Positions 12,796 to 31,587 of a DNA stretch of 64,000 bases are shown here, in pieces. This DNA is from a virus (lineage: Duplodnaviria; Heunggongvirae; Uroviricota; Caudoviricetes), in IMG/VR virus record IMGVR_UViG_3300020049_016248. One strand, 5' to 3'. Below the pieces are notes generated by a model, which saw only the letters and a list, made by a program, of their open reading frames with translations, ran no database searches and was not told the DNA's origin. The translations under genes were made by a program, and so were the position numbers. The first letter of the stretch is position 1. Each line of letters opens with the position of its first letter.

Positions 12796-12827
12796 AAAGC
12801 CGCTAGGTTGTTTACTTTAGCGGCTTT
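12796..12827 (+). terminator. hairpin (aaagccgcta / tagcggcttt) between cobS and cobT, overlapping promoter-like motif copy 1
   Basis: 10-bp perfect inverted repeat with an 11-12 nt loop; the downstream T-run is weak. Confidence 0.35.
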
Positions 12828-12835
12828 ATCTTTAG
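12810..12835 (+). promoter_or_regulatory. promoter-like bipartite motif GTTTAC-N11-TATCTTTAG (copy 1)
   Basis: Exact match to a motif repeated 6 times in the window; ATG at 12860. Confidence 0.5.
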
Positions 12836-12859
12836 TTAAATTTAAAAATCAATACTCAT

Positions 12860-14839
12860 ATGAAAAAAATAGGTTCAGCATCAGGTCCTTCTAAGGCTTC
12901 AAAACATTTAGGAAAAAAAATGTTTTCTCGTGATAAAAAACTTGAAGATAAAAAAATTACTAAACCTTTAGAAGAGGTACATCCAGATGAGAAATTTTAT
13001 AACGTTGACAAAAACGAATTAGAAGAAGTAATGTCTTCTAAAAACCGTACGTCAAGTTACTGGTTGCCAGAAACAGATATTCCTGATTACTTTGTGTTAC
13101 AACGTATGATGAAAAACATTAATACTGTTTGTGGTTTTATCACTGGAAAAGCATTGAGAGTTAATTTCTCTGAGATTGATGGTCCAAGTCATGCAGATTT
13201 TGCTGGTGAAGAAATTACTATTTCTATCGGCTCATTATATGACTACCGTATTCCTTTCCATATGAGATTGAATATTGTTTTAGCTTTAGGTATTCATGAA
13301 TCTTGGCATGTAAAATATACTACTCCTGCTATGGAGAGAATGTTAGTGCAAAATGGTTTAACAAAAAGTAAAATTTCTCGTTTTGGATTTGGTAAAACTC
13401 AAAAAGTTGCAGACTTTAGCCAAAGTGGTAAACTTTTCAAACATAACTTCCAAACATTTTTAGCAAATTGTGTTGAAGATAGACGTATTGAACATTTAGG
13501 GTTAATTGATTACCCTGGGTATGTTTACTACATGGAAGAGTTTCGTAAATACGGGTTGTGGTGTAACATTAATGCTTTGTTAAACCCTGTAACTAAACCA
13601 GATTGGAATAACCCAGACCATTTTTATGGTGCATTAACACAATACATTGCATTTAAAAATGTAGCTCCAGAAATCTTACCAGTATTTGCTTCTTATGGAC
13701 CGAATACAAAAGAATTCAAAGCTTTAACAGATAAAGTAGATGCAATTTGTAAAGACGTTCCATTAACTTACGATGACACAATGTCACAGTCTTTAGAATT
13801 GTTGAAATTGTATCCTGACGAGCAAAAAAACAAACAAGCTAAGGAAAAAAATTGTAACGGAGATGGTAACGGTAAAAATCAAGGACCACAAATGGCAGAA
13901 GGAACTGCTGCTGATGGTAAAACTGTAAAACCAAGTAAAGACGAAAAAGAAGCAATTGGTGACATAAAAGACGATAATCAACCTTATGCTACTTCTGAGC
14001 AAAAAGATATTAAAATTGAAGATCGTTTTGACAAACATGACCAATACAGCCACGTTCATATTGAACCTGCAGCAGAAGGTCGTTTTGACCAAGCTGTTTT
14101 TGACCAAGCAAGTGAAATTGCTCGTCAAATTAGCAAAAATTTATCTTTCTTAGATTCACGTTTCAATCGTGTAACAGAAGCTTTTGAAATGAGAAATGGT
14201 GAATTGGATGAGGATGCAATCTTTGGTTTAAAATTCAACAAGGATATTTTCTACGAAGAAGAAGAAGCTCCAGGTTACTCAATGGATTTTGGAATCTTGA
14301 TTGATGAGTCTGGTTCAATGCACGGTAGCAAAATTCGTGATGCTAAAATTGCTGCATTAGCTTTAGCAATTGCTTTGAAAGATAACCAACATATTAACTT
14401 GTTTGTTTACGGTCACACTGCAAATACAGGAGGTCACCCAATTACAATGTACAAATACTTTGACCAATTAGAAAAAGGTTGCCAAGATATTTCAACATTG
14501 TTTTCAGTAGAAGCAAGATCTAACAATGCAGATGGTTATGCAATTTCTGCAATGGGAGATATCTTAAACAAAGGTAAATCAAGACAAAAAGTTTTAATTG
14601 TTGCATCTGACGGTCAACCACACGCATCAGGTTACGGTGGAAGACAAGCTAACCAACATACTGCTCAAATGGTTCAAAAACTTGAAATGCAAGGAATGTT
14701 TGTTTGTCAAATTGCAATGGAAAACTTTAACTCTGCTGAAATGTTTACAAACTTTGTTCCTTATGACAAAAACAGCTTAGGAGTTAACTTGAAAAAAGTG
14801 TTGTTAAAAAAATTAGTAGAAATCTCAAACTTAGTATAA
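12860..14839 (+). CDS. cobT: CobT-like von Willebrand factor A (vWA) domain protein with N-terminal HExxH-containing region
   Basis: C-terminal MIDAS motif LIDESGSMHG (DxSxS) followed by IVASDGQP. HESWH motif near aa 150. Immediately downstream of the MoxR AAA+ gene. Confidence 0.75.
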   Translation: MKKIGSASGPSKASKHLGKKMFSRDKKLEDKKITKPLEEVHPDEKFYNVDKNELEEVMSSKNRTSSYWLPETDIPDYFVLQRMMKNINTVCGFITGKALRVNFSEIDGPSHADFAGEEITISIGSLYDYRIPFHMRLNIVLALGIHESWHVKYTTPAMERMLVQNGLTKSKISRFGFGKTQKVADFSQSGKLFKHNFQTFLANCVEDRRIEHLGLIDYPGYVYYMEEFRKYGLWCNINALLNPVTKPDWNNPDHFYGALTQYIAFKNVAPEILPVFASYGPNTKEFKALTDKVDAICKDVPLTYDDTMSQSLELLKLYPDEQKNKQAKEKNCNGDGNGKNQGPQMAEGTAADGKTVKPSKDEKEAIGDIKDDNQPYATSEQKDIKIEDRFDKHDQYSHVHIEPAAEGRFDQAVFDQASEIARQISKNLSFLDSRFNRVTEAFEMRNGELDEDAIFGLKFNKDIFYEEEEAPGYSMDFGILIDESGSMHGSKIRDAKIAALALAIALKDNQHINLFVYGHTANTGGHPITMYKYFDQLEKGCQDISTLFSVEARSNNADGYAISAMGDILNKGKSRQKVLIVASDGQPHASGYGGRQANQHTAQMVQKLEMQGMFVCQIAMENFNSAEMFTNFVPYDKNSLGVNLKKVLLKKLVEISNLV

Positions 14840-15477
14840 TGGCTGAAAAAAAAGAAGACGGTAAAGGGAGAAAACTTCCCTTTACTATCAAATACGAAAT
14901 CGAAGAAACTGCAGATGGTGCAGATGTAAACTTTAAGCTTGAAAACAGCGAAGAAGATCGTTTGTTTGCTTACATGGTTACTTTATGGGACCTTAGTCAA
15001 TTACTTGACAGAGCAATGGATGATAAACGTATTCCAACAGAAGTAAAAGCAGATTTCTTAACAGCTGCTAAGATTTTGAAAGATATGACCCAGGCTTGTA
15101 AAATGAAAGTAGAAGAAAAGCTTAAAATGGGAACTGAAACAACTATCATGGAAAGATTACAAAAACTTTTCAAAGATGTAGCAGGTGACATGAATGAAGA
15201 AAATCCTTTCAAAGATTTAAAAGACCTAGGTAAAGATGGAATGAAACCATCTAAGGTAGTCATCGGTGGAGATGTTCCAGAAGAAATTCGACAACAACTT
15301 GAGGATGCTCTCAAAGCACAATTCGGTGAAGATATTGACATCGGTAACATGTCAAAAAAAGAAACTGAAGAACTTATCAGTAAACGAAAATCAAAAGGTG
15401 AAAAGTCTGACGATGAAGTTGACTTTGATGATTTAGATAAAAAATCAAATAAAGATTCATCTGATATTGATATGTAA
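14839..15477 (+). CDS. highly acidic hypothetical protein
   Basis: 212 aa, D/E-rich throughout, with a C-terminal DDEVDFDDLD run. Confidence 0.5.
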   Translation: MAEKKEDGKGRKLPFTIKYEIEETADGADVNFKLENSEEDRLFAYMVTLWDLSQLLDRAMDDKRIPTEVKADFLTAAKILKDMTQACKMKVEEKLKMGTETTIMERLQKLFKDVAGDMNEENPFKDLKDLGKDGMKPSKVVIGGDVPEEIRQQLEDALKAQFGEDIDIGNMSKKETEELISKRKSKGEKSDDEVDFDDLDKKSNKDSSDIDM

Positions 15478-15604
15478 AAAATAACTGAAACTGTAACAAT
15501 TAAAAAAGTATTATGTAGAGTTACAGGGTTGAGGACCGAATAGGGGGGCTACATCTTCAGGAATCGGCTTAGACCTGTTATAGTTTCAGTTTAATTTTAA
15601 AGTT

Positions 15605-15985
15605 ATGAATTTACAAATTTATGCCAAAGGGACTAAGTTAAGGTTAACAAAAGATTGGAATTTCCAATGTCATAAAGATGGTTATGGGCTTATGCCTTAC
15701 TCACCTACAAATAGTTATACTTTACAAGCAGGTACAATCTTATCAATTCATGATATTGATATTCGAGGTAATTGCAAAGTTCCAAGGTCAGTTTGTTTTC
15801 TTATCCCTAAAAAAGGTTGTCCTAGTGATGATTTTTACGAAAGTCAAACTTTTCATGTTGACTTCAATCAATTAGATAATTTAGAGTTTGAGTTAAATTC
15901 AAAAGCTGACTTAAAGTTAAATTCAATCAAGTTGAAAGATATGATAAGTTCAATCAATGAAGAGTTAAACGTTAAAGAAAAATAA
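15605..15985 (+). CDS. hypothetical protein
   Basis: 126-aa ORF. Confidence 0.45.
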   Translation: MNLQIYAKGTKLRLTKDWNFQCHKDGYGLMPYSPTNSYTLQAGTILSIHDIDIRGNCKVPRSVCFLIPKKGCPSDDFYESQTFHVDFNQLDNLEFELNSKADLKLNSIKLKDMISSINEELNVKEK

Positions 15986-15986
15986 A

Positions 15987-16376
15987 ATGAACTTAGAAAG
16001 TATTATCCTTTTTATAAGTATTGTTGTTATACATTTTATTGCTGATTTCATTTTCCAGGATGAGAAATGGGCAGTAGGAAAAAGTCATTCTATAAAACTA
16101 TTAACTTTACATGTTAGTATGTATACAACTGTATGGTTTATGTTTTGTAACTTTTACTGCTATGCAACAGGGAATTATATGATATATTTTTTAGTTCCGA
16201 TAACTTTTGTTTCACATTGGTTAACAGATTACTTTACTTCTAAAGTCACAAGTCGTTTATATGCTGAAAAGAAATTCGGCTCATCTATACCTAATTTAAG
16301 TTTCTTTACAATGATTGGATTTGACCAAGTGTTACATTATATTCAATTATTCTTAACTTTTTATTTTTTAAGTTAG
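15987..16376 (+). CDS. hypothetical membrane protein
   Basis: 129 aa with 3-4 hydrophobic helices. Confidence 0.45.
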   Translation: MNLESIILFISIVVIHFIADFIFQDEKWAVGKSHSIKLLTLHVSMYTTVWFMFCNFYCYATGNYMIYFLVPITFVSHWLTDYFTSKVTSRLYAEKKFGSSIPNLSFFTMIGFDQVLHYIQLFLTFYFLS

Positions 16377-16421
16377 TTTGTAGTTTACAAGGTTTAAAGT
16401 ATCTTAAGGTAAAATTAAAAT

Positions 16422-16700
16422 ATGAAAATCACTACAATCATATCACAAATTGATATCTTATTAGAAGCTTTAAAACAAACACAAACAGTTTATAAGGTTT
16501 CTTACAAAGAACAAGTAGATATCTCTTGTTTAAAACTATTTTTAGACCTCTCTTTACTTAATTTAGATTTACTTTATTCTCTGCAAGAGAAATGTAAAGA
16601 ATTAGGTATTGAAGCTGAAATAACTATCCCAACTCACATTGATGGTGTCGCGGTAAAAGATTTACCTGTTGACAAGCAATGTTTAACAATTCATTTTTAA
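16422..16700 (+). CDS. hypothetical protein
   Basis: 92-aa ORF. Confidence 0.4.
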   Translation: MKITTIISQIDILLEALKQTQTVYKVSYKEQVDISCLKLFLDLSLLNLDLLYSLQEKCKELGIEAEITIPTHIDGVAVKDLPVDKQCLTIHF

Positions 16701-16948: not shown

Positions 16949-17473
16949 ATGAAAGAAGTAAGATTATGTGCTAATCAAGAGTGTGGTAAAGAGTTCACTG
17001 TTTGGTCTTCACAAAAGAAGAGATATTGTTGTAGAAAGTGCACAATGACTTTAGAAAGGCGAGAGTCAATAAGACAAGAGAAAACTGGAAAACCAAACCC
17101 CAAAGTATCAATTGCACTGAAAAATTCTATTTCAGCTAAAAAATATCAATTTAAAAAGGGAAAAGACAATCCAGCATTTGGACGAAATCAAACAGGTGAA
17201 GCAAATCACAATTGGAAAGGTGGAAAAACAAATAAGAATCAAAAATTAAGAAATAGTCCACAGTATAAAATTTGGCGACAAGCTTGTATGGAACGAGATC
17301 ACTTTCAATGTACTGATTGTGGTGCAAAGGGATATTTACAAGTACATCATATAAAAGAGGTCTCTAACTACCCTGAACTTATTTGGGAACTTGATAACGG
17401 AAAAACAGTTTGCGTGTCGTGTCACGAAAAAATACACGGAAGATTTATAGGAAAATTTAAACAACAAAAATAA
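16949..17473 (+). CDS. HNH homing endonuclease with N-terminal Cys-rich zinc-finger region
   Basis: C-terminal VHHIKEVSNYPELIWELDNGKTVCVSCHEKIH is an HNH motif; CxxC pairs at the N-terminus. Confidence 0.75.
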   Translation: MKEVRLCANQECGKEFTVWSSQKKRYCCRKCTMTLERRESIRQEKTGKPNPKVSIALKNSISAKKYQFKKGKDNPAFGRNQTGEANHNWKGGKTNKNQKLRNSPQYKIWRQACMERDHFQCTDCGAKGYLQVHHIKEVSNYPELIWELDNGKTVCVSCHEKIHGRFIGKFKQQK

Positions 17474-18366
17474 TGGAAAATAAAAAAAAATATGCCTGTA
17501 TAAGTTTATCAGGTGGGATGGACTCTTCTACTTTACTTCTTAAATTGTTAGTTGAAGGTTATAATGTTACTGCTTTATCTTTTAATTACGGTCAAAAACA
17601 CTCTGTAGAATTAGAAAGAGCAACTGAATTAGTGAAATATATTAAATCAGATTCAAAAGGGGCTGGAAAAAGACAATCTGGAACTTTAACTCATCAAATT
17701 ATTAAACTAGATGGTTTAGGACAATTGTTAAATTCAACTTTAGTTGAAGGTGGTTCAGATGTTCCAGAAGGGCATTATGCTGAAGAAAATATGAAAGACA
17801 CGGTTGTGCCAAATCGTAATAAAATATTTTCTTCAATTATTCAAGCAGTTGCTTTATCTATAGCAGAACAAAATAATACTGAATGCGCTATTGCTATGGG
17901 TATTCATGCTGGTGATCATGCTATCTACCCTGATTGTAGACAAGAGTTTAGAGATGCAGATTTTGAAGCTTTCAAACAAGGTAATTGGGGGTCTGAAAAA
18001 GTAATCATCTATACTCCTTATCTTCATACTGATAAATTCGGTATTTTAGAAGATGGGTTAGTTTGTTGTGAAAAGTTAAGTTTAGATTTTAACGAAATAT
18101 ATAAACGTACTAATACAAGTTATAAGCCAATTTTTATCAGAGAAGTTTCTAAACAAACAATAGACGATAAAGACTATTACACCCCTGAAAGTAATGGTAA
18201 ATGGTATTCAGATTATAAGTCAGCAAGTTCGGTAGAACGAATAGAAGCATTTATTAAATTAGGTAAACAAGACCCAGTTGAATATGCTGATGAAACAGGA
18301 CCTGTTTCATGGGAAACAGCAAAAGCTTATGTAGAGAAAGTTCTCGCTGAACATAGTAATAAATAG
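17473..18366 (+). CDS. queC: QueC-like PP-loop ATPase (7-cyano-7-deazaguanine synthase homolog) with divergent C-terminal extension
   Basis: SLSGGMDSST (SGGxDS PP-loop), LSFNYGQKH (FDYGQRH), VPNRNKIF (VPGRNILF) and YPDCRQEF (YPDCRDEF) align with E. coli QueC. The canonical C-terminal Zn-binding CxxC cluster is not evident. Confidence 0.75.
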   Translation: MENKKKYACISLSGGMDSSTLLLKLLVEGYNVTALSFNYGQKHSVELERATELVKYIKSDSKGAGKRQSGTLTHQIIKLDGLGQLLNSTLVEGGSDVPEGHYAEENMKDTVVPNRNKIFSSIIQAVALSIAEQNNTECAIAMGIHAGDHAIYPDCRQEFRDADFEAFKQGNWGSEKVIIYTPYLHTDKFGILEDGLVCCEKLSLDFNEIYKRTNTSYKPIFIREVSKQTIDDKDYYTPESNGKWYSDYKSASSVERIEAFIKLGKQDPVEYADETGPVSWETAKAYVEKVLAEHSNK

Positions 18367-18385
18367 TTAAATTATTTTAAATTAA

Positions 18386-18420
18386 GAACCTACGCTACGC
18401 GTAGGTTCTCCTTGTTTTTA
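18386..18420 (+). terminator. rho-independent terminator-like hairpin (gaacctacgc / gcgtaggttc) followed by a T-rich tract
   Basis: Perfect 10-bp stem with a 3-nt loop, then tccttgttttta. Confidence 0.6.
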
Positions 18421-18446
18421 ACGTTTTTTGTTATTTTCGGTAGGAA

Positions 18447-18472
18447 GTTTACAAGTTTAACCATATCTTTAG
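18447..18472 (+). promoter_or_regulatory. promoter-like motif GTTTAC-N11-TATCTTTAG (copy 2)
   Basis: Exact motif; followed by conserved ATTATAAATTAAAAC and an ATG at 18497. Confidence 0.5.
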
Positions 18473-18496
18473 ATTATAAATTAAAACATATAGCAA

Positions 18497-18834
18497 TGAG
18501 TTATAAAAAATTCAAAATGACTGAAGAAGAGTTTATCGATTATTGCGAATCTCTTACTGAACAAGAATTGAAAAGATTTCAATTAGAGTCAAAAAAGGAT
18601 GATATTCAAAGAGCACACCATTGGCTTTATATTGCATGTATTACAATGGTTTTAGCATCATTTTCTACAAACTGGGCTAAACATGTAGCAGATTCTACAT
18701 TATTATATGTTACTTGCTTTATAATTACAATAGTTTCAATTTTTTTCGTTTTCGGTTTACTTAAAAGAATAAAACAAGAAAAATTAATGTATAAAATGTT
18801 AGAAATTTTCTACAAAGAAAACAATATCCTTTAA
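18497..18834 (+). CDS. hypothetical membrane protein (the ORF-track start at 18412 is probably too early)
   Basis: First ATG downstream of the promoter-like motif; two TM helices. Confidence 0.45.
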
Positions 18835-18836: not shown

Positions 18837-19016
18837 ATGGCAAAGAAAAAAGAAATTATCAAATTTGACCCCGAAGAAGTTAGAAAAGGGTTAAAAGGTA
18901 TTCGCAGACAAGAAGAAATTGATAACCAATTGCGAATACCTACTCATACTGTTCAAAAAAGTAAAAAAGAATACACTCGTAAACGTAAACATAAGAAAAA
19001 TTTTGAAGTTGAATAA
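18837..19016 (+). CDS. small basic protein (59 aa)
   Basis: ATG 18837 to TAA 19014-19016. K/R-rich. Below the ORF-track length cutoff. Confidence 0.3.
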   Translation: MAKKKEIIKFDPEEVRKGLKGIRRQEEIDNQLRIPTHTVQKSKKEYTRKRKHKKNFEVE

Positions 19017-19023
19017 TTTTATA

Positions 19024-19032
19024 TATCTTTAG
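19024..19032 (+). promoter_or_regulatory. variant promoter-like -7 box TATCTTTAG (upstream hexamer GTTGAA) ahead of the cassette array
   Basis: Matches the 3' half of the repeated promoter motif. Confidence 0.3.
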
Positions 19033-19066
19033 TAAAAAATAAATTTAAAGTTCTGAACCTCGCATT

Positions 19067-19086
19067 ACATATACACCTTGTTATAC
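19067..19086 (+). repeat. isolated 3' box ACACCTTGTTATAC (core-site-like GTTATAC) at the head of the array; possible attI-like boundary
   Basis: Almost identical to the 3' end of element D (tacaccttgttatatgc) and followed by the same cacggtttattaatg. Confidence 0.35.
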
Positions 19087-19144
19087 ACAGTACGGTTTAT
19101 TAATGTTGAATGCTGATACAAAGAATAATTAAAATTAAAAAAAT

Positions 19145-19477
19145 ATGCACAAACAAAAGGAAGTAAAAATAAATGTTGATGATAAAATACAACCACTAAT
19201 TCAATTTATATTTGATAGATTAACTGGTTTGATACCAATAGCATCTTGTATAGGTGGAGATGAATCACAAAACGAAAGTATGGATTGTTATATACTACTA
19301 ATAGTTAGGAATCATAATCATCTAAATCATCTAATGGATTTATGTTCATCTTGGCATTGTCAGTATATCAAACCAAATGGTGAAACTGGAAATGTACCAA
19401 CATATAGAATAAGTATTTCTAATTTAAACGATGTGTTGGATAAATTGAATTTGATAGATGAAAATTATATTTTTTAA
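19145..19477 (+). CDS. cassette-like small ORF 1, hypothetical
   Basis: 110 aa. Confidence 0.45.
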   Translation: MHKQKEVKINVDDKIQPLIQFIFDRLTGLIPIASCIGGDESQNESMDCYILLIVRNHNHLNHLMDLCSSWHCQYIKPNGETGNVPTYRISISNLNDVLDKLNLIDENYIF

Positions 19478-19591
19478 TTTACACCGAACTTAATTTGATA
19501 CACGAATATAGTATTGTGTATAACGTTCGGGCGGTTGGCGTTCGTTGCCGACTTTGGAACAAGAAACTTTAACTTTAAAAATAAATTTGAT

Positions 19592-19834: not shown

Positions 19835-19839
19835 TTGGT

Positions 19840-19930
19840 GCTAACGGTTGGCAATATATGTAGTTGCCATGCACGAACTTAAAAATTAAATATAAACCTT
19901 AATAGGCAATTACATATATTGCTTGTTAGC
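19840..19930 (+). repeat. attC-like imperfect palindromic element B (GCTAACGG...GCTTGTTAGC)
   Basis: 5' box GCTAAC and 3' box GTTAGC are complementary. Inner arms ggcaatatatgtagttgcc / ggcaattacatatattgc with a ~37-nt loop. Extrahelical bases lie between the boxes. Confidence 0.55.
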
Positions 19931-22081: not shown

Positions 22082-22161
22082 GCCTAACGGTATCAAGCTA
22101 AAAGCTGACCGCCTTTATAAGCGGTTTGGTGATGGCGGTTTGATTTTAGGTTGTGTTATAT
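22082..22161 (+). repeat. attC-like element H (GCCTAACGG...GTGTTATAT), more degenerate
   Basis: 5' box GCCTAAC fits the inverse-core RYYYAAC; internal hairpin accgcctttataagcggt. Confidence 0.4.
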
Positions 22162-22183
22162 TTAGGTTTTTAAATTTTTAGCG

Positions 22184-23271: not shown

Positions 23272-23297
23272 ACATATTGATTTTATTAAGGTTTGAA

Positions 23298-23323
23298 GTT
23301 TACTAATTATACTGTATCTTTAG
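23298..23323 (+). promoter_or_regulatory. promoter-like motif GTTTAC-N11-TATCTTTAG (copy 3)
   Basis: Exact motif plus the conserved GTTATAAATTTAAAAC extension; ATG at 23347. Confidence 0.5.
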
Positions 23324-24256: not shown

Positions 24257-24357
24257 CCAGTTAAAGTAAAAAAAAGGTATTAGTTGAATGTCTTTTTAAT
24301 ACATTTAGGTCTAAATTAAAAGTGAAAATAATTATTAACTAAAAACAAAAAGCAAAG

Positions 24358-25551
24358 ATGAAAAATCTTAATCTAAAAAAAGTATTGTTCCTCGCAATTG
24401 GAATTATCGGCTTAGTTTTCTTGATTGGATACGCAGGTTCCATTGGAGAAGAAGTAAAAGCTGGTGAAATTGTTGTAATTCAAAAACCAGTATCTGGTGA
24501 ATTATCTGTACACACAAAACCAGGTTGGGTGTGGCAACATTTTGGTATTGCTACTCATTACAAAAAATCTTTCCAATTCTGGTTTACCAAACCAACTGAA
24601 AAAGATGGAGTAGATAACTCTATAAAAGTTCGTTTTAACGATGGTGGTTATGCTAACATTTCTGGTTCAGTTCGTGTTGACCTTCCACTTGACCAGGTTG
24701 CAATATTGAATTTACATACGAAGTTTGGTTCTCAAGAAGCTATTGAACACCAGCTTGTAAAAACAGTATTAGAAAAATCTATCTATATGACAGGTCCACT
24801 AATGAGCTCTGCTGAATCTTATGCTGAGAAACGTAATAGTTTACTAAGTTATATTGAAGACCAAGCAACACAAGGTGTGTATAAAACGGTAACGAAGACA
24901 ATTAAAACTATCGACCCTATATCAGGAGCTGAAAAAACTACTTCTGTCGTTGAAATTGTTGTAAATAATAACATGCCGCAGCGTCAAGAAAAATCACCAA
25001 TATCAGAAACTCATATTAAATTATCTGGTCTTGCTTTGAATAGTATTGATTATGATGCAACTGTTGAAAAACAAATTTCCGCTCAGCAACAAGCTGTTAT
25101 GCAAGTTCAAACTGCTATTGCTAACTCAAAAAGAGCTGAACAAGATGCCTTAACTGCTGCTAAACAAGGTGAAGCTTCTGCTGCTAAAGCTAAGTGGGAC
25201 CAAGAAGTTATCAAAGCTAAAGTATTAACTGAAGCTCAACAAGAATTAGAAAAACAAAAACTTGCCACTCAACAAGCTGTACTTTACAAGCAACAATTAA
25301 TACTTGAAGGTGAAGGTGAAGCTACTAAACAAAAGTTGATTATGCAAGCGAATGGTGCCTTAGATCAAAAACTTGAAGCTTATAAAACAGTTCAAAAATA
25401 TTGGGCAGATGCATTCTCTAAATACCCAGGAGCTATAGTGCCAATGATCCAAACAGGTGGTAATTCATCAGGAAATGGAGCATTGAATTTTGCAGAACTC
25501 ATGTCAATGAAAGCAGCAAAAGATTTAGCTCTTGATTTAAAAAATAAATAA
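24358..25551 (+). CDS. SPFH/band-7 (flotillin/YqiK-like) membrane protein
   Basis: N-terminal TM helix; SPFH-like core (GEIVVIQKPVSGELSVHTKPGWVW); Ala/Gln-rich C-terminal coiled coil. Confidence 0.5.
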   Translation: MKNLNLKKVLFLAIGIIGLVFLIGYAGSIGEEVKAGEIVVIQKPVSGELSVHTKPGWVWQHFGIATHYKKSFQFWFTKPTEKDGVDNSIKVRFNDGGYANISGSVRVDLPLDQVAILNLHTKFGSQEAIEHQLVKTVLEKSIYMTGPLMSSAESYAEKRNSLLSYIEDQATQGVYKTVTKTIKTIDPISGAEKTTSVVEIVVNNNMPQRQEKSPISETHIKLSGLALNSIDYDATVEKQISAQQQAVMQVQTAIANSKRAEQDALTAAKQGEASAAKAKWDQEVIKAKVLTEAQQELEKQKLATQQAVLYKQQLILEGEGEATKQKLIMQANGALDQKLEAYKTVQKYWADAFSKYPGAIVPMIQTGGNSSGNGALNFAELMSMKAAKDLALDLKNK

Positions 25552-26459: not shown

Positions 26460-26515
26460 CTTACGCTGCGCGTAGATTTCTCTTATTTTCATTTTTTTGT
26501 TATTTTTAGTAGGAA

Positions 26516-26541
26516 GTTTACTAATTTAACTGTATCTTTAG
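26516..26541 (+). promoter_or_regulatory. promoter-like motif GTTTAC-N11-TATCTTTAG (copy 4)
   Basis: Exact motif; preceded by the short palindrome tacgc-tgc-gcgta; ATG at 26579. Confidence 0.5.
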
Positions 26542-26578: not shown

Positions 26579-27607
26579 ATGACAAAAGGTGAACAAATCG
26601 AAAACTTTTTAAAAACAAATACAATTGTTGATAAAAAATTAGCTTACGAAACGTTTATTAAAGAAACAAAAATAGAAGTTTCTTTTGCCCGTTTTGATTA
26701 TATCTGGAAAACAAAAGGAAACAATGCATCTCAAGTTATTTTAACACCTGCTATACCTCAAGTTAGAGAAAAGGTAAAACTTGTTAAAATTAGTGATATT
26801 CATTATCCAGATTCGATTTTAATTCCTTTCAAATCCAATACCCCATTAGATATTTTAGCCTCTGAACAGGGTGGAGTTCTACCAGCTACAATTACTGTAT
26901 CACCAGGTAAATCTGGTGTAGGTAAATCAACTATTTGGTTAGAACATTTAGGTAATGTTAAAAAGCAACATAAAAAAGCTCGTTTATTATTTATTTCAAC
27001 TGAGATGAATGATATCCATTTATACAAATATTCAAAACGTATTAAATTTGATGGTGTTGAGATTATGTTGTTAGGGGATTATGAAAACCCTGCTTACGCT
27101 TTAGAAGATGTTTTAAAAGAGGGTTGGGATATTATATTGTTAGATTCATTTCAAGATTGTGTTGATAAATTAGTTGCATCAGGGTTATTTCGTTCTACTC
27201 AAGCTGAATCTTGGTTGTTAACAACAATGGATAAAACAAGAAAAGGTGAAAATGATTTAAAACTTTACACTTCATTTATTTGTATTCAACATATGACAAA
27301 AGGTGGTGAGTATGCAGGGTCATCAAAATTGAAACATATGACTGATGCTATGGTAATGTTTGATTTTGATGAATTAGAAGAACCTTTTATTGAATATCAA
27401 AAGAATCGTGATGGTGCAATAAAGAAAAAACTTTACTTTAAAATTATCAATGGACAAGGTACTGTTTACAATGAACACCGTTTCCAACAAGATGAGGAAA
27501 ACAAACAGGAAGTAAGTAAAGTACGTAACCAAATATCACAAAAAAATACTGACTTCGATGATTTCTTCAATATCTCTGCACAACCTAAAGTTGAAGAAAC
27601 AGCGTAA
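26579..27607 (+). CDS. DnaB-C-terminal/RecA-superfamily P-loop ATPase
   Basis: Walker A SPGKSGVGKST, LLFISTEMN (DnaB-like SLEMs), Walker B ILLDSFQD. Confidence 0.55.
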   Translation: MTKGEQIENFLKTNTIVDKKLAYETFIKETKIEVSFARFDYIWKTKGNNASQVILTPAIPQVREKVKLVKISDIHYPDSILIPFKSNTPLDILASEQGGVLPATITVSPGKSGVGKSTIWLEHLGNVKKQHKKARLLFISTEMNDIHLYKYSKRIKFDGVEIMLLGDYENPAYALEDVLKEGWDIILLDSFQDCVDKLVASGLFRSTQAESWLLTTMDKTRKGENDLKLYTSFICIQHMTKGGEYAGSSKLKHMTDAMVMFDFDELEEPFIEYQKNRDGAIKKKLYFKIINGQGTVYNEHRFQQDEENKQEVSKVRNQISQKNTDFDDFFNISAQPKVEETA

Positions 27608-27617
27608 ATTGTTGGAA

Positions 27618-27643
27618 GTTTACAAGTTAATGCATATCTTTAG
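27618..27643 (+). promoter_or_regulatory. promoter-like motif GTTTAC-N11-TATCTTTAG (copy 5)
   Basis: Exact motif plus ATTATAAATTTAAAAC; ATG at 27670. Confidence 0.5.
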
Positions 27644-27669: not shown

Positions 27670-28740
27670 ATGAAAACACAAGCTCAATTCGATTCATTCA
27701 AAACAATTTCGTTAAAAAATGAACCATTAACTCGTGAAGTATTACTTTCAGACTTACAAATTGTAAGCGAGAATGCTATTGCTTATCGCGGTAAAGAATT
27801 TAAGTGCACTGAACAGGCAATTAATGATATTGCTGACATTGTAGGTGTACCTAAAACTTTTGCTACCAGTTTTGGTAAATCATTTGGAACTGTAGGTAAA
27901 CAAAAACTTGTTGAATTACAAAAAAGTGCTCGCATTGCTAGTGGAAAAGGTATTACAGTTACTTTAGCTGCTAATAAAGTTTTCGGGATTGTGGAACGCG
28001 TTTATAAAGGAAGTCAAATTTTACCATACGCAACGTATTTTGATACATTTGAAAGATTAATGAACAGTCATAAACTTGACATTGTTGATTTCGGTCAAAC
28101 ACCAACAGGTGTATTCGTTTCAACAAAATCAGTTGAAGATGAGTTTAAAATTGGAAATTTTGGGAATGAAGTATTTCACCCAGGGTTTACATTAACGAAC
28201 AACCTTTCAAACGGTTTAGTTTTAGATTCTTATTTATATCGTTTGATTTGTACGAATGGAATGGTTGGTCAAAGTTTTGGACACTCTATTAAATACAATC
28301 CAGAGTCGATGACAGATTTCTTCAAATCTCTTATTGAATTTAAAAATTCAGGATTGATTCCTTTAGGGTTCAGAGACAAAGTAACACAAGCTATTCATAC
28401 GAAAGCATCTTATGCAGAAGTTCATTCAGCTGCAAAAATTATTACAAACAATTCTAAACTAACAATTGATTTAGTTGACCGTTTTGTTCCAGTAAATGAT
28501 ATTCGTAGAAAATTTGCATTGAAAGGAGCAGATACTGTAAAATGGAACTCTGCACAAGAAAAAAATGCAATCACTAATGTTAGTGTTTGGGATGTTGTAA
28601 ATGGTTTAACAGACTTTGCTTCTCATGATTATGGTTTTGATGTAAAAGAGTCTGACCGTTTATCAATGCAAAAACAAGCTGGTGATTTGTTAGGTAAACC
28701 AGCTTTTGATACTCAAAATTTAGTTCACGTTAGTTTATAA
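27670..28740 (+). CDS. hypothetical protein
   Basis: 356 aa. Confidence 0.5.
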   Translation: MKTQAQFDSFKTISLKNEPLTREVLLSDLQIVSENAIAYRGKEFKCTEQAINDIADIVGVPKTFATSFGKSFGTVGKQKLVELQKSARIASGKGITVTLAANKVFGIVERVYKGSQILPYATYFDTFERLMNSHKLDIVDFGQTPTGVFVSTKSVEDEFKIGNFGNEVFHPGFTLTNNLSNGLVLDSYLYRLICTNGMVGQSFGHSIKYNPESMTDFFKSLIEFKNSGLIPLGFRDKVTQAIHTKASYAEVHSAAKIITNNSKLTIDLVDRFVPVNDIRRKFALKGADTVKWNSAQEKNAITNVSVWDVVNGLTDFASHDYGFDVKESDRLSMQKQAGDLLGKPAFDTQNLVHVSL

Positions 28741-29379: not shown

Positions 29380-29451
29380 GCGTTCTTAGCTGAGGTGGTT
29401 TAGCATTTGGTTGAAGCCCAAAAGACACTGGTTCGACTCCAGTAGATCGCA
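29380..29451 (+). tRNA. tRNA-Phe (anticodon GAA)
   Basis: Hand-folded cloverleaf: acceptor gcgttct/agatcgc (one T-T mismatch), D-arm gctg-aggtggtt-tagc, anticodon arm tttgg-ttGAAgc-ccaaa, T-arm actgg-ttcgact-ccagt. Confidence 0.6.
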
Positions 29452-29457
29452 CAATAT

Positions 29458-29531
29458 GATTCTGTAGCTCAGTTGAATAGAGCAATTGCCTTCTAAGCAA
29501 TAGGTCAAAGGTTTGAATCCTTTCAGAATCA
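29458..29531 (+). tRNA. tRNA-Arg (anticodon TCT)
   Basis: Acceptor gattctg/cagaatc perfect; D-arm gctc-agttgaata-gagc; anticodon arm attgc-ctTCTaa-gcaat; T-arm aaagg-tttgaat-ccttt. Confidence 0.8.
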
Positions 29532-29543
29532 CTTAAAATAAAT

Positions 29544-29625
29544 GCCGACGCGCTAACGTTGGAGGGTTAGGACAGTCTGTAAAACTGTTACATAAGTCTA
29601 GTAGGTTCGAATCCTATCGGCGGCA
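29544..29625 (+). tRNA. tRNA-Tyr (anticodon GTA), class II with long variable arm
   Basis: Acceptor gccgacg/cggcggc (one mismatch); anticodon arm acagt-ctGTAaa-actgt; 12-nt variable region; T-arm gtagg-ttcgaat-cctat. Confidence 0.65.
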
Positions 29626-29707
29626 CTAGCAGAACACAACTGCTGAAACAAATAGGTGATTCAGTTATCGGTGAGCAAGTCTGAACTAAAACAAAATGTT
29701 GCTTAAT

Positions 29708-29784
29708 GGACATATAGCTCAGCTGGTAGTAGCAAATGATTGTTAATCATTAGGTCGTAGGTTCGAACCCTACTATGTCCGCCA
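29708..29784 (+). tRNA. tRNA-Asn (anticodon GTT), CCA encoded
   Basis: Acceptor ggacata/tatgtcc perfect; anticodon arm aatga-ttGTTaa-tcatt; T-arm gtagg-ttcgaac-cctac; followed by gcca. Confidence 0.8.
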
Positions 29785-29793
29785 AGTAAACAA

Positions 29794-29879
29794 GCGAGTG
29801 TCGCATAGAGCCCGATTGCACCTGACTTCCAATCAGGAAAGATAAAATCACAACGCAGGTTGAAATCCTGTCGCTCGCT
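29794..29879 (+). tRNA. atypical tRNA-like gene (anticodon loop reads TCC = Gly, but 17-nt variable region, 3-bp D-stem and non-canonical T-loop ttgaaat)
   Basis: Acceptor gcgagtg/cgctcgc with a G-U pair; anticodon arm cctga-ctTCCaa-tcagg; unusual for a Gly tRNA. Possibly a pseudo-tRNA or non-canonical tRNA. Confidence 0.35.
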
Positions 29880-29923
29880 CTCAGCCAGTTGTTAAATCTG
29901 GTGAAAATTAAAACTTAACAAAC

Positions 29924-29996
29924 GCAAAAATAGCTCAATTGGTAGAGCGTTGCCTTGCCAAGGCAAAGGTTGTGAGTTCGAGACTCATTTTTTGCT
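29924..29996 (+). tRNA. tRNA-Gly (anticodon GCC)
   Basis: Acceptor gcaaaaa/tttttgc perfect; D-arm gctc-aattggtag-agc; anticodon arm ttgcc-ttGCCaa-ggcaa; T-arm gtgag-ttcgaga-ctcat. Confidence 0.75.
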
Positions 29997-29997
29997 C

Positions 29998-30114
29998 TGT
30001 GATATAGCTCAGCTGGCAGAGCGGCCCCGTGTAAAGGGGAAGGTCGTGGAATAAGTGAAAACTTGTTGCTTCTATATACGTATAGAATTGGGTGTTCGAA
30101 TCCCACTGTCACAA
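29998..30114 (+). pseudogene. tRNA-like gene interrupted by a ~45-nt insertion carrying a palindrome (ttctatatacgtatagaa) between the variable region and the T-loop; anticodon loop reads GTA
   Basis: Canonical 5' half tgtgata-ta-gctcagctggcagagc-g-gcccc-gtGTAaa-gggga-aggtc. Canonical 3' end ttcgaatcccac-tgtcaca pairs with the 5' acceptor including a G-U. The T-stem 5' strand is displaced by the inserted sequence. Confidence 0.4.
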
Positions 30115-30602: not shown

Positions 30603-30704
30603 ATGCTTCTATGGCGAGAAGGGCGCGCAATATACTTTTTATCAAAGGGAATATTTCTAACTTGAACTATATTTAATAGAAAACAACTTAAACGTAGTTC
30701 GATA

Positions 30705-31316
30705 ATGAAATGTCAAAGTGTAAAATGTGAAAAAGAGCATGATGGTAAATATGGGAGCGGGAAATATTGCTCAAGACAATGTGCTAATAGTAGAACTTGG
30801 TCAGAGGAAGATAAGTTAAAAAAATCCAATTCTGCTAAAAATAGCAAAAAAGTTTTAACTCGAAGTTGTGAATGTTTATATAAATTAAAAGCTGCAGCGT
30901 TAAAAAAAAGTGAAAAAGCAAAGGAGGAAATTTTAATAGCGAATTGGGAAGATCTATCTTTTGAACGATTAAGAAAAAGAGTTATTTGGGAACAAAACGA
31001 ATGTTGTGCAACTTGTGGGATAAGTGAGTGGAGAGGAAAAAAAATTTCACTAGAATTAGAACATAAAGATGGAAACCATTCGAATAACGCAAAGGAAAAC
31101 TTAGAAGCATTATGTCCAAACTGTCATAGTTTAACAACTACTTGGAGAGGGAGAAATAAATCAAGAAAAGTAAAAAAAATCTCAGATGAAGATCTATTAA
31201 TATCTTTAATTGAAAACAATTGGAATATGAGACAAGCTTTACTTAATCTTAATTTAGCTGCAAAAGGAAGTAATTATAAAAGATGTCATAGGGTAAAAAG
31301 AATGATAGATTCTTAA
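30705..31316 (+). CDS. HNH homing endonuclease inserted in the tRNA region
   Basis: N-terminal CxxC zinc finger; C-terminal LELEHKDGNHSNNAKENLEALCPNCH is an HNH motif. Confidence 0.75.
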   Translation: MKCQSVKCEKEHDGKYGSGKYCSRQCANSRTWSEEDKLKKSNSAKNSKKVLTRSCECLYKLKAAALKKSEKAKEEILIANWEDLSFERLRKRVIWEQNECCATCGISEWRGKKISLELEHKDGNHSNNAKENLEALCPNCHSLTTTWRGRNKSRKVKKISDEDLLISLIENNWNMRQALLNLNLAAKGSNYKRCHRVKRMIDS

Positions 31317-31326
31317 TAAAACACAT

Positions 31327-31355
31327 GGGTGATGGTTCGATTCCATCTAGGAGCA
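31327..31355 (+). pseudogene. orphan tRNA 3' fragment (T-arm gatgg-ttcgatt-ccatc + acceptor 3' strand taggagc + a)
   Basis: Perfect T-arm and 7-nt acceptor strand 11 nt after the HNH stop codon. No matching 5' half was found within 160 bp upstream of the HNH gene. Confidence 0.5.
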
Positions 31356-31434
31356 CTCAGGTTTGAACTTTGATTATTTGAGCATTGACAAGGTCAATTA
31401 GACCTAACAAGATAGCTGAGTAAATAATCATTAT

Positions 31435-31507
31435 GACCTCGTAGCTCAATTGGCGGAGCACTATACTTTTAATATAGGGGTTATGGGTTCAAGTCCCATC
31501 GGGGTCA
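31435..31507 (+). tRNA. tRNA-Lys (anticodon TTT)
   Basis: Acceptor gacctcg/cggggtc with one G-U; D-arm gctc-aattggcgg-agc; anticodon arm ctata-ctTTTaa-tatag; T-arm atggg-ttcaagt-cccat. Confidence 0.8.
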
Positions 31508-31561
31508 CAATTATTTTTATTTCTTACCTAGGGTTATATTCCTATAACTTATGGGTTTTTA

Positions 31562-31587
31562 GTTTACTTATTAAGTGCTATCTTTAG
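31562..31587 (+). promoter_or_regulatory. promoter-like motif GTTTAC-N11-TATCTTTAG (copy 6)
   Basis: Exact motif; ATG at 31607. Confidence 0.5.

What the first reader, a model, noticed from the sequence alone, without database searches (positions are those of the whole stretch)
12810..31587. Phage promoter family GTTTAC-N11-TATCTTTAG, six exact copies, often directly after hairpin terminators
Six sites carry the hexamer GTTTAC, exactly 11 nt of variable sequence, then TATCTTTAG: 12810-12835, 18447-18472, 23298-23323, 26516-26541, 27618-27643 and 31562-31587. A start codon follows each one 25-45 nt downstream. Three copies continue with (A/G)TTATAAATT(T)AAAAC. A seventh variant (GTTGAA-N10-TATCTTTAG at 19008-19032) precedes the cassette array.

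Several sit just downstream of strong hairpins, including a perfect 10-bp palindrome gaacctacgc-tac-gcgtaggttc at 18386-18408, forming terminator-promoter units. The 3' box resembles the Bacteroidetes sigma-A -7 element TAnnTTTG. The -33 element TTTG would be expected about 20 nt upstream, not at N11, so this may be a phage-specific middle or late promoter read by a modified host polymerase or a phage sigma factor.
Basis: seen in the sequence. Interest (0 to 1): 0.6.

Follow-up and report, generated by a model that had tools for sequence, protein, structure and literature searches.

The report
Conserved three-box phage promoter family
The repeated GTTTAC-N11-TATCTTTAG sites are real and are almost certainly the promoters of an uncultured phage of Bacteroidota-type bacteria; they have the host's usual two promoter boxes plus an extra, phage-specific box between them whose reader is unknown.

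Summary
There are six exact GTTTAC-N11-TATCTTTAG sites, all on the gene strand and all intergenic, where chance predicts none. One 1-mismatch site and about five looser variants also exist.

The motif is conserved in four related metagenomic phages whose marker protein is 50-53% identical. There it lies before homologous and unrelated genes, with a variable 11-nt spacer. A degenerate consensus gives 23 hits on the gene strand, 0 on the other strand, and about 0.7 expected.

TATCTTTA behaves as a Bacteroidota -7 box at -12..-5. Across 181 genes, the box ends 3-5 nt before the ATG in 13 cases, never 0-2 nt, and otherwise mostly 14-35 nt. That pattern implies a start site 5 nt after the box and a class of leaderless mRNAs.

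GTTTAC (-29..-24) is therefore a third box in the spacer. It is clade-specific: a sister clade keeps both outer boxes without it.

Some sites form hairpin-plus-promoter cassettes that are duplicated and shuffled, like T4 PeSLs.

No sigma factor, RNA polymerase or MotA/AsiA-like gene was recognised among about 70 window ORFs. No start sites have been measured.

The parts
12802..12835 (+). Class-I promoter (boxes at -37..-32, -29..-24 and -12..-4). Predicted start site about 12839. It serves the CobT-like VWA gene 12860-14839.
   Evidence: Exact match. An orthologous site lies before the CobT-like gene of L211 at 15538.
12794..12829 (+). Hairpin after the CobS-like AAA gene. Its loop holds the GTTTAC box and its 3' arm fills the 11-nt spacer, so terminator and promoter overlap.
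   Evidence: -18.5 kcal/mol, z = -3.7. The orthologous position in L211 has a 13-bp stem of different sequence (-22.6 kcal/mol, z = -5.0), so the structure is conserved while the sequence changed.
16375..16408 (+). Class-I promoter with one mismatch (TATCTTAAG). Predicted start site about 16412. It serves ORF 16422-16700.
18385..18409 (+). Intrinsic-terminator-like hairpin with a T-run, after the QueC gene. It is the upstream half of a terminator-promoter cassette.
   Evidence: 11 pairs; -17.1 kcal/mol, z = -5.4.
18439..18472 (+). Class-I promoter. Predicted start site about 18476. It serves the membrane-protein ORF 18496-18834 and ORF 18837-19016.
   Evidence: Exact match. The module is about 80% identical to 26460-26541.
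19008..19032 (+). Variant promoter GTTGAA-N10-TATCTTTAG, just upstream of the cassette array (first ORF at 19145).
   Evidence: The spacing is one nt short, so function is less certain.
23290..23323 (+). Class-I promoter. Predicted start site about 23327. It serves ORF 23347-23913.
   Evidence: Exact match. TTTG lies at -35..-32.
24283..24308 (+). Variant promoter GTTGAA-N11-TACATTTAG before the Band_7-like gene 24358-25551.
26461..26475 (+). Weak, degenerate hairpin with a T-rich tract. It is the paralogue of the 18385 hairpin.
   Evidence: -5 kcal/mol, z = -0.9; alignment.
26508..26541 (+). Class-I promoter. Predicted start site about 26545. It serves the RecA/DnaB-like ATPase gene 26579-27607.
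   Evidence: Exact match. Orthologous sites lie before the homologous gene in L125 (8492), L121 (8423), L122 (8429) and L211 (8556).
27610..27643 (+). Class-I promoter. Predicted start site about 27647. It serves gene 27670-28740 (phrog_1362).
   Evidence: Exact match. Orthologous sites lie in L125 (9933), L121 (9941), L122 (9941) and L211 (9953).
31554..31587 (+). Class-I promoter after tRNA-Lys. Predicted start site about 31591. It heads the closely packed gene run 31607-38600.
   Evidence: Exact match; gene packing.
35157..35182 (+). Variant GTTGCA-N11-TATCTTTAG inside the 3' end of ORF 33991-35226, before ORF 35241-35675. A possible internal promoter.
6906..6931 (+). Variant GTTTAA-N11-TAAATTTAG before the DUF6576 gene 6989-7453.
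   Evidence: The TAAATTTA(G/T) box is kept before the homologous gene in L122 and L121.
22138..22165 (+). Loose variant GTTTGA-N13-TATATTTAG before ORF 22184-22393. A weak candidate.

Best explanation
These sites are the promoters of one co-regulated, probably early or middle, gene class of an uncultured phage that infects a Bacteroidota-type host.

**Anatomy (shown).** Each site has three boxes:
- a -33-like element, R-G-T-W-G, at -37..-33;
- a phage-clade-specific box, G-K-T-N-A-C (GTTTAC in this phage), at -29..-24;
- after a variable 11 nt, TATCTTTA at -12..-5, usually followed by G.

**Core recognition (inferred).** The two outer boxes have the geometry of Bacteroidota primary-sigma promoters (TTG, about 20 nt, TAnnTTTG). 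The host RNA polymerase with its primary sigma factor most likely makes the core contacts. It would start transcription 5 nt after the box, for example at about 18476. That gives 10-34-nt A-rich leaders in this phage and leaderless mRNAs in its relatives.

**The middle box (inferred, my committed guess).** It lies where no sigma-70-family polymerase is known to read bases. I take it to be the docking site of a phage-encoded auxiliary DNA-binding factor. That factor would switch the class on, or time it, and would compensate for weak outer boxes (TAG instead of TTG in about half of the sites; A instead of G at -5).

**Cassettes (shown).** Several promoters are joined to an upstream hairpin. They behave as portable terminator-promoter cassettes that are duplicated within the genome and travel with their genes between genomes.

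**Sub-probabilities.** Promoter: about 0.85. Host primary-sigma-type core recognition: about 0.6. Auxiliary factor on the middle box: about 0.4-0.45.
For: **Non-random and oriented.**
- Six exact sites against none expected.
- The degenerate consensus G[GT]TNAC-N11-TANNTT[TA]A gives 23 gene-strand hits and 0 on the other strand in five related genomes. About 0.7 are expected.
- Every hit lies shortly upstream of a gene on that strand.

**Phylogenetic footprint.**
- The relatives L125, L121, L122 and L211 have a marker protein 50-53% identical to the window's.
- They carry the boxes before the homologues of 26579, 27670 and the CobT-like gene, and before unrelated genes.
- The 11-nt spacer differs throughout.

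**Positions not imposed by the search pattern are conserved.** R-37 22/23, G-36 22/23, T-35 22/23, W-34 23/23, A-30 18/23, C-9 20/23, G-4 18/23, T-2 21/23.

**Start-site geometry.** Over 181 genes, the distance from the box end to the ATG is:
- never 0-2 nt;
- 3-5 nt in 13 cases, with a peak of 7 at 4 nt (for example TATCTTTAGaccATG);
- sparse at 6-13 nt;
- broad at 14-35 nt.

This fits a box at -12..-5. That is where the TAnnTTTG box of Flavobacterium psychrophilum sits (PMC9723704).

**Host type.**
- Only 2 of 75 genes have a Shine-Dalgarno core.
- The nearest relatives of the phage's tyrosine recombinase (41-54% identity) are mostly in Bacteroidota genomes.

**The middle box marks a class and a clade.**
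- Clade B phages (L123, L212) keep G-36 T-35 T-34 G-33 and TATCTTTA(C/T) in the same register but have no such box.
- Its sequence differs between subclades: GTTNAC against GGTWAC.
- Within one genome, some promoters lack it.

**Cassette behaviour.**
- Two modules in the window are about 80% identical.
- Promoters stay with their genes although gene order differs between genomes.
- Metagenome contigs L213, L214 and L220 resemble the window only over 47-105 nt at the promoter. L218 has four sites in 2.6 kb.
Against: - No transcription start site has been measured. Every position number rests on the leaderless geometry and on analogy with Flavobacterium.
- The host is unknown.
- The -7 box has A, not the consensus G, at -5 in all 23 sites. 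About half of the sites have TAG, not TTG, at -35..-33. Recognition by an unmodified host sigma factor is therefore not assured.
- No canonical TTG-N18-21-TAnnTTTG promoter lies in any intergenic region of the window.
- No candidate factor was found. About 70 window ORFs gave no transcription-related Pfam or PHROGs hit.
- One conserved small protein could not be modelled (pLDDT 41). Another candidate is not conserved in the family.
- A site between the -35 and -10 regions is more typical of repressors than of activators. The sign of regulation is therefore a guess.
- Strong phage early promoters, such as those of T4, carry extra conserved positions without needing any phage factor.
Confidence: 0.45

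Rival explanations
1. Host polymerase alone. The sites are strong early promoters read by unmodified host polymerase with its primary sigma factor. The GKTNAC box and the other extra conserved positions are part of an optimised consensus, or are a polymerase contact peculiar to this host lineage. No phage factor is involved.
For: - The outer boxes have the host-type geometry and sequence.
- Immediate-early genes must be read by host polymerase, yet the window has no canonical TAnnTTTG promoter. Some TAnnTTTA(G) sites must therefore work unaided, unless the early promoters lie elsewhere.
- T4 early promoters likewise have a phage-specific consensus: GTTTAC at -36..-31 (PMC1524935).
- PeSL cassettes in T4-type phages are early promoters (PMC4122927).
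- No factor gene was found.
Against: - To my knowledge, no sigma-70-family holoenzyme reads bases at -29..-24. Here, however, G-29 and C-24 were already invariant in the 16 sites collected without requiring them.
- The box is absent from the sister clade, which has the same -7 box.
- It is also absent from other promoters of the same genomes.
- The departures from the host consensus (A at -5, TAG at -35..-33) suggest that help is needed.
Confidence: 0.3
2. Phage sigma factor or re-targeted host sigma factor. A phage-encoded sigma factor, or a phage protein pair that remodels the host sigma factor as T4 AsiA/MotA does, reads the whole 14-bp upstream element (-37..-24) together with the -12..-5 box.
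For: - All 23 sites have A at -5 instead of the host's G. Most have G at -4, giving a box one nt longer than TAnnTTTG. In F. psychrophilum, a box one nt shorter (TAnnTTGY) marks a separate regulon (PMC9723704).
- Canonical host promoters are absent from the window's intergenic regions.
- The GKTNAC box ends 11 nt before the -10-like element. This is the spacing of the T4 MotA box, (a/t)3TGCTTtA-N11-13-TAtaAT (PMC1524935).
Against: - No sigma, anti-sigma, MotA, AsiA, gp55 or polymerase homologue was found among about 70 window ORFs. The precomputed Pfam calls of five relatives' loci show none either.
- Unlike MotA promoters, these sites keep a conserved -35/-33-like element in the normal register.
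- Promoters without the GKTNAC box use the same -7 box.
Confidence: 0.17
3. Not a promoter. The motif acts at another level, for example as an RNA processing or translation signal in the leader, as a recombination or homing site, or as a dispersed mobile repeat.
For: - Parts of the cassettes are duplicated within the genome.
- They are shared between otherwise unrelated contigs, as mobile repeats would be.
- Three copies share a further 15 nt downstream.
Against: - A two-box pattern with a fixed-length but sequence-variable spacer is typical of protein-DNA recognition.
- The distance to the ATG varies from 3 to 37 nt, which argues against a ribosome-binding role.
- Strict co-orientation with genes (23 against 0) and the empty 0-2 nt bin fit transcription initiation.
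- No Rfam family matches the sites.
- The boxes are conserved at orthologous positions while their flanks diverge.
Confidence: 0.05

Closest known systems
Bacteroidota primary-sigma (sigma-A) promoters: -33 TTTG/TTG and -7 TAnnTTTG
   Same: - TA-NN-TTT occupies what the leaderless geometry indicates is -12..-6.
- A (G)TTG-like element lies 20 nt upstream of the TA.
- Leaders are A-rich and lack a Shine-Dalgarno sequence, as in Bacteroidota (PMC9723704, PMC6847099).
   Different: - Position -5 is A, not G, in all 23 sites.
- The middle base of TTG is A in about half of the sites.
- There is an additional invariant box, GKTNAC, at -29..-24.
- Positions -4 (G) and -2 (T) are also conserved.
PeSLs (promoter-early stem-loops), composite promoter-terminator cassettes of T4-type phages (PMC2839356, PMC4122927)
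   Same: - A stem-loop lies directly upstream of a highly conserved phage promoter, followed by a short leader and a start codon.
- The cassettes sit between small or variable genes.
- Cassettes are duplicated within the genome.
- They are shared between otherwise unrelated sequences.
- They move with their genes when gene order changes.
   Different: - PeSL promoters are sigma-70 type (for example TTTACW-N17-TAYWAT) with a Shine-Dalgarno sequence. These are Bacteroidota type, with a third box and no Shine-Dalgarno sequence.
- Only 2 of 7 class-I sites in the window have a strong hairpin.
- Recombination at the cassettes is inferred here, not shown.
T4 MotA-dependent middle promoters: (a/t)3TGCTTtA-N11-13-TAtaAT (PMC1524935)
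   Same: A phage-specific box ends 11 nt upstream of a host-type -10/-7 element. It marks a non-late gene class that includes replication genes.
   Different: - The box sequence is unrelated.
- A -35/-33-like element is retained here, whereas MotA promoters lack one.
- No MotA or AsiA homologue was detected.
- The host sigma factor is of a different type.
T4 early promoters (-35 region GTTTAC at -36..-31; PMC1524935)
   Same: The hexamer GTTTAC is identical. Both are phage-specific consensus promoters serving many short early transcription units.
   Different: Here the hexamer sits at -29..-24, about 7 nt closer to the start site, with a separate -35/-33-like element upstream of it. The identity of the hexamer is most likely coincidental.

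Membership tests
Bacteroidota sigma-A promoter | -7 box TAnnTTTG at about -12..-5 | tested here: inconclusive
   TA-NN-TTT is present in 22/23 sites (the 16383 site has TTA), and its position is supported by the leaderless geometry. The last base is A, not G, in 23/23 sites.
Bacteroidota sigma-A promoter | -33 TTG/TTTG about 19-21 nt upstream of the -7 box | tested here: inconclusive
   G-36 T-35 W-34 G-33 lies with N20 to the TA. T-35 is 22/23 and G-33 is 15/23. Position -34 is T in 13 sites and A in 10. Clade B has a clean GTTGC.
Bacteroidota sigma-A promoter | Transcription by host polymerase with sigma-A, starting about 5 nt after the box | not testable with these tools
   This needs 5'-end mapping or in vitro transcription. 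Only the indirect distance histogram is available.
T4-type PeSL cassette | Stem-loop immediately upstream of a conserved early promoter | tested here: inconclusive
   Hairpins at 18385-18409 and 12794-12829 are strong; the latter overlaps its promoter. Those before 26516 and 31562 are weak. 23298, 27618 and 16383 have none.
T4-type PeSL cassette | Sigma-70-type -35/N17/-10 promoter plus a Shine-Dalgarno sequence | tested here: not met
   There is no Shine-Dalgarno sequence (2/75 genes). The -10-like box is TATCTTTA, of the Bacteroidota type. An extra box is present.
T4-type PeSL cassette | Association with gene shuffling or variable regions | tested here: met
   Promoter-gene units are relocated between genomes. 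Some contigs resemble the window only at the promoter. A module is duplicated within the window.
T4 MotA-type middle promoter | MotA box TGCTTtA centred near -30, 11-13 nt from the -10 element | tested here: not met
   The spacing matches (N11), but the sequence is GKTNAC, unrelated to TGCTT.
T4 MotA-type middle promoter | No -35 element; MotA and AsiA encoded by the phage | tested here: not met
   A -35/-33-like element is conserved. No MotA or AsiA hit was found in the window ORFs by PHROGs or Pfam. The rest of the genome was not seen.
Sigma-54 promoter | GG-N10-GC (TGGCAC-N5-TTGC) at -24/-12 | tested here: not met
   GGTTAC in L121 and L122 looks superficially similar. However, the distance to the next conserved element is 15 nt, and there is no conserved GC at -12.

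The most novel reading that the evidence does not exclude
Phages of Bacteroidota may carry a sigma-appropriation-like system analogous to T4 MotA/AsiA, or a new small phage sigma factor. In this reading a phage protein reads the 14-bp element R-G-T-W-G-N3-G-K-T-N-A-C (-37..-24), which looks like a direct repeat of GTW with an 8-bp period. The host sigma factor would read only the -7 box. The result would be a temporal promoter class with its own code, one that co-evolves with the phage clade: GTTNAC, GGTWAC or absent.
Probability: 0.25. Interest if true: 0.7.

Novelty: new variant of a known kind. Interest (0 to 1): 0.45.

Why it matters
**What is new.** I know of no description of temporal promoter classes in Bacteroidota phages, and my text searches found this motif in no relevant paper.

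**Practical use.** This family gives an explicit, testable promoter code, with start sites predicted to the nucleotide, for a widespread group of uncultured AT-rich phages from digester and other metagenomes. The code can be used to:
- annotate transcription units and leaderless genes in such phages;
- supply strong, portable promoters for Bacteroidota genetics, where E. coli signals fail;
- search for the factor that reads the extra box.

**If a phage factor exists.** It would be a new example of a phage redirecting the unusual Bacteroidota transcription machinery.

**Genome evolution.** The cassette behaviour extends the PeSL idea of promoter-mediated gene shuffling beyond T4-type phages of Proteobacteria.

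Tried and rejected
- **IMG/VR scan for the 15-base pattern.** Uninformative.
- **Related loci in IMG/VR with the 26579 protein.** No relatives.
- **Megablast of 20 kb and tblastn of four proteins against cultured phages.** No close cultured relative. The huge uncultured phage LR756508.1 has distant homologues of two proteins but no motif.
- **Sigma-70-type promoter scan.** No enrichment: 85 found against 86.8 expected.
- **A sigma-70 reading** (TTTACN-N16-TAGNTT). Rejected. The putative -10 hexamer is not conserved, and in the leaderless genes the start site would fall beyond the ATG.
- **Sigma-54 and ECF readings.** Rejected on spacing and sequence.
- **A second 'late' motif, TATTTA(G/T)AGT.** Only three intergenic copies, with equal numbers on the wrong strand. 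Not established.
- **Candidate factor 23347-23913 (188 aa, two tandem repeats).** Homologues occur only in close relatives of this phage. Dropped.
- **Candidate factor 7455-7742 (95 aa, conserved in clade A).** The database search returned only close homologues. The AlphaFold model had pLDDT 41.5, so no fold search was run.
- **Rfam.** Only tRNAs.
- **Literature searches for the motif strings and for Bacteroidota phage promoters.** Nothing relevant.
- **One relative (P0008).** No DNA could be fetched.

Full report
**1. Observation**

The pattern GTTTAC-N11-TATCTTTAG occurs six times, at exactly the stated coordinates and always on the + strand. None of 100 dinucleotide-preserving shuffles produced a single match.

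TATCTTTAG alone occurs 11 times, all on the + strand, against 1.38 expected. Eight copies lie upstream of genes. Three (2646, 8632, 38026) are inside ORFs without the upstream box and are probably chance.

Allowing mismatches adds more sites:
- 16383: GTTTAC-N11-TATCTTAAG
- 19008: GTTGAA-N10-TATCTTTAG
- 24283: GTTGAA-N11-TACATTTAG
- 35157: GTTGCA-N11-TATCTTTAG
- 6906: GTTTAA-N11-TAAATTTAG
- 22138: GTTTGA-N13-TATATTTAG

The hairpin at 18385-18409 is strong (-17.1 kcal/mol, z = -5.4). So is the one at 12794-12829 (-18.5 kcal/mol, z = -3.7), which overlaps its promoter. Those before 26516 and 31562 are weak, and 23298 and 27618 have none.

**2. What the window is**

It is a phage with 30% G+C. 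It has no near match among 50,697 phage records and no close cultured relative by protein search.

Recognisable genes:
- DNA polymerase III alpha and a family-A DNA polymerase
- CobS-like and CobT-like proteins
- QueC
- UvsX, DnaB and ribonucleotide reductase
- a tail module at about 39.8-53 kb
- eight tRNAs

The same phage occurs in several JGI, ENA and Logan metagenome assemblies. No capsid, portal or terminase gene was seen in the 64 kb plus 9 kb of flanks. The genome is therefore probably much larger than what I examined.

Only 2 of 75 genes have a Shine-Dalgarno core. The nearest relatives of its tyrosine recombinase (41-54% identity) are mostly in Bacteroidota genomes. A Bacteroidota-type host is the best inference, but it is not proven.

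**3. Conservation in relatives**

Homologues of protein 27670-28740 define a family of uncultured phages. I fetched loci for seven of them.

Four relatives (L125, L121, L122, L211) have a marker protein 50-53% identical to the window's and 31-38% G+C. They carry the same bipartite pattern before the homologues of 26579, 27670 and the CobT-like gene, and before unrelated genes. The 11-nt spacer differs throughout.

The upstream hexamer differs by subclade:
- GTTTAC in this phage and L125
- GTT(T/A/C/G)AC in L211
- GGT(T/A)AC in L121 and L122

The degenerate consensus G[GT]TNAC-N11-TANNTT[TA]A gives 23 hits on the gene strand and none on the other strand in these five genomes. About 0.7 are expected. 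It gives no hits in three more distant genomes.

A metagenome scan for GGAAGTTTAC-N11-TATCTTTAG returned 12 contigs:
- Most are AT-rich and phage-like, with the site just upstream of an ORF.
- L218 has four sites in 2.6 kb.
- L213, L214 and L220 resemble the window only over 47-105 nt at the promoter.

The motif is thus a selected, oriented, gene-proximal signal shared by a phage group. It is not a chance repeat.

**4. Where transcription would start**

I pooled 181 genes of the family. I then measured the distance from the end of the 8-mer TA[TCA][CTA]TTTA to the ATG:
- never 0-2 nt
- 3-5 nt in 13 cases, with a peak of 7 at 4 nt (for example TATCTTTAGaccATG, TATCTTTAGattATG, TATCTTTACacaATG)
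- sparse at 6-13 nt
- broad at 14-35 nt

This is what a promoter box at -12..-5 predicts. Either the A of the ATG is +1 (a leaderless mRNA), or a leader of at least about 10 nt follows.

In Flavobacterium psychrophilum the primary-sigma box TAnnTTTG lies at -12..-5 (PMC9723704). I therefore number T of TATCTTTA as -12. The predicted start sites in the window are 12839, 16412, 18476, 23327, 26545, 27647 and 31591.

The sequence shared downstream of three copies, (A/G)TTATAAATTTAAAAC, would then be the first bases of an A-rich leader without a Shine-Dalgarno sequence.

**5. Full anatomy**

Aligning the 23 sites shows conservation at positions that the search pattern did not impose:

| Position | Base | Sites |
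|---|---|---|
| -37 | R | 22/23 |
| -36 | G | 22/23 |
| -35 | T | 22/23 |
| -34 | W | 23/23 |
| -33 | G | 15/23 |
| -30 | A | 18/23 |
| -9 | C | 20/23 |
| -4 | G | 18/23 |
| -2 | T | 21/23 |

So there is a -35/-33-like element, (G)T(T/A)G, with exactly 20 nt between its G and the TA.

Two more distant relatives (L123 and L212, clade B) have CTGTTGCnT with G-36 T-35 T-34 G-33 in the same register. They also have the same TATCTTTA(C/T), but no conserved hexamer at -29..-24.

GTTTAC is therefore a third, clade-specific box inside the spacer. Within clade A genomes, other promoter-like sites have the -7 box without it. The box thus marks a class.

**6. Mechanism**

Shown:
- the three-box anatomy
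- its conservation
- its strand and position relative to genes
- the distance distribution to the ATG

Inferred:
- that it is a promoter
- that the outer boxes are read by host polymerase with its primary sigma factor
- that transcription starts 5 nt after the box

For the middle box I considered three readings.

(a) A phage-encoded auxiliary DNA-binding factor. I commit to this at about 0.4-0.45, for these reasons:
- Base-specific reading at -29..-24 is not a known property of sigma-70-family holoenzymes. This rests on my own knowledge of E. coli-type complexes.
- The box is specific to a clade and to a class.
- The outer boxes are sub-consensus (TAG in about half of the sites; A at -5 in all).
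- The box ends 11 nt before the -10-like element, as the T4 MotA box does (PMC1524935).

(b) Host polymerase alone, with an optimised phage consensus as in T4 early promoters (about 0.3). One observation favours this. The window has no canonical TTG-N18-21-TAnnTTTG in any intergenic region. Some TAnnTTTA(G) promoters must therefore work unaided, unless the early promoters lie elsewhere.

(c) A phage sigma factor or a sigma-appropriation system (about 0.17).

About 70 window ORFs were scanned with Pfam and/or PHROGs. None hit a sigma factor, polymerase, anti-sigma factor, MotA, AsiA or gp55. The precomputed Pfam calls of the relatives' loci show none either. Most ORFs match nothing, and much of the genome is unseen, so this is weak negative evidence.

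Two candidate proteins led nowhere.

**7. Cassettes**

Modules 18380-18472 and 26460-26541 are about 80% identical. Each consists of a hairpin (ACGC-NNN-GCGTAG), a T-run and the promoter.

The 26579 and 27670 genes lie elsewhere in the relatives' gene order, yet keep their promoters. Unrelated contigs share only the promoter segment.

At the junction between the CobS-like and CobT-like genes, a hairpin encloses the GTTTAC box in its loop. The orthologous hairpin in L211 has a different stem sequence, so the structure itself is conserved.

This matches the behaviour of PeSL promoter-terminator cassettes of T4-type phages (PMC2839356, PMC4122927). The difference is that the promoter here is of the Bacteroidota type.

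**8. Comparison and novelty**

The family works like a Bacteroidota primary-sigma promoter. It fails strict membership on the last base of the -7 box and, in half of the sites, on the -33 triplet. It also carries an extra invariant box.

It resembles T4 middle promoters in geometry only. The identity of the hexamer with the T4 early -35 (GTTTAC at -36..-31) is positional coincidence.

I found no description of this motif in the literature library. I rate it a new variant of a known kind: a phage promoter class and PeSL-like cassette adapted to Bacteroidota signals. It is of moderate interest. Interest would rise if a dedicated phage factor is found.

**9. Limits**

- There are no experimental start sites.
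- The host is unknown.
- The genome is incomplete.
- The sites are partly related by duplication and orthology, so the 23 sites represent fewer independent events.
- The sign of regulation, and even the existence of a factor, are inferences.

Noticed in passing
window 19017-23271: About nine small ORFs (19145-22393) are separated by roughly 100-nt intergenic regions. These regions are imperfect inverted repeats flanked by ..CTAAC(G).. and ..GTTAG.. motifs, for example arms 19851-19868/19905-19922, 20972-20991/21024-21043 and 21740-21760/21795-21815. A 271-aa tyrosine recombinase on the same strand follows at 22456-23271. This looks like an integron-type cassette array with attC-like sites inside a phage. 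The recombinase's nearest relatives (41-54% identity) are mostly in Bacteroidota genomes.
   Followed up: partly
window 30605-31356: With introns allowed, ARAGORN calls a tRNA split by a roughly 657-nt insert that contains the HNH-endonuclease ORF 30705-31316. A clear T-arm (GGTTCGATTCC) lies just after the ORF at about 31335. This may be an intron-interrupted tRNA gene, but the permissive search could give a false positive.
   Followed up: partly
window 29380-30114 and 31435-31508: A cluster of tRNA genes: Phe, Arg, Tyr, Asn, Gly and Gly, plus a 117-nt Rfam tRNA hit at 29998-30114 and a separate tRNA-Lys. ARAGORN and Rfam disagree on two members.
   Followed up: no
L121 11169, 13887, 17105; L122 11185, 14004; L125 11195, 13883, 17847; L211 13443, 18360; window 7753, 15605, 23978: Many genes of this phage family begin 3-5 nt after a -7-like box, which implies leaderless mRNAs. 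This is a much larger share than the 5.5% reported for Flavobacterium psychrophilum itself (PMC9723704).
   Followed up: yes
window 12794-12829 and L211 15517-15558: A hairpin between the CobS-like and CobT-like genes encloses the GTTTAC box in its loop. It is conserved in structure, but its stem sequence differs between the two phages. It could couple termination of the upstream gene to promoter activity.
   Followed up: partly
window 32216-33442 and 33991-35226: Two paralogous genes of about 410 aa (phrog_2475, unknown function) flank a rubrerythrin-like gene. Homologues occur in large Vibrio, Bacillus and Prevotella phages.
   Followed up: no
window 17473-18366 and 37017-38600: QueC (7-cyano-7-deazaguanine synthase) hints at deazaguanine modification of DNA or tRNA. 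A DUF2828/DUF7788 protein, annotated in PHROGs as RNA-binding, lies at the end of the 31607-38600 gene run.
   Followed up: no
window 15478-15604 and 38601-38801: Two unusually G+C-rich or long intergenic regions (127 and 201 nt) have no promoter-like box and no Rfam match. They may hold structured RNAs.
   Followed up: no
window 39805, 53734, 54609: Three intergenic copies of (C/G)TATTTA(G/T)AGT lie before genes in or next to the tail region. They could hint at a different, late promoter type, but the counts are too small and there are equal numbers on the wrong strand.
   Followed up: partly
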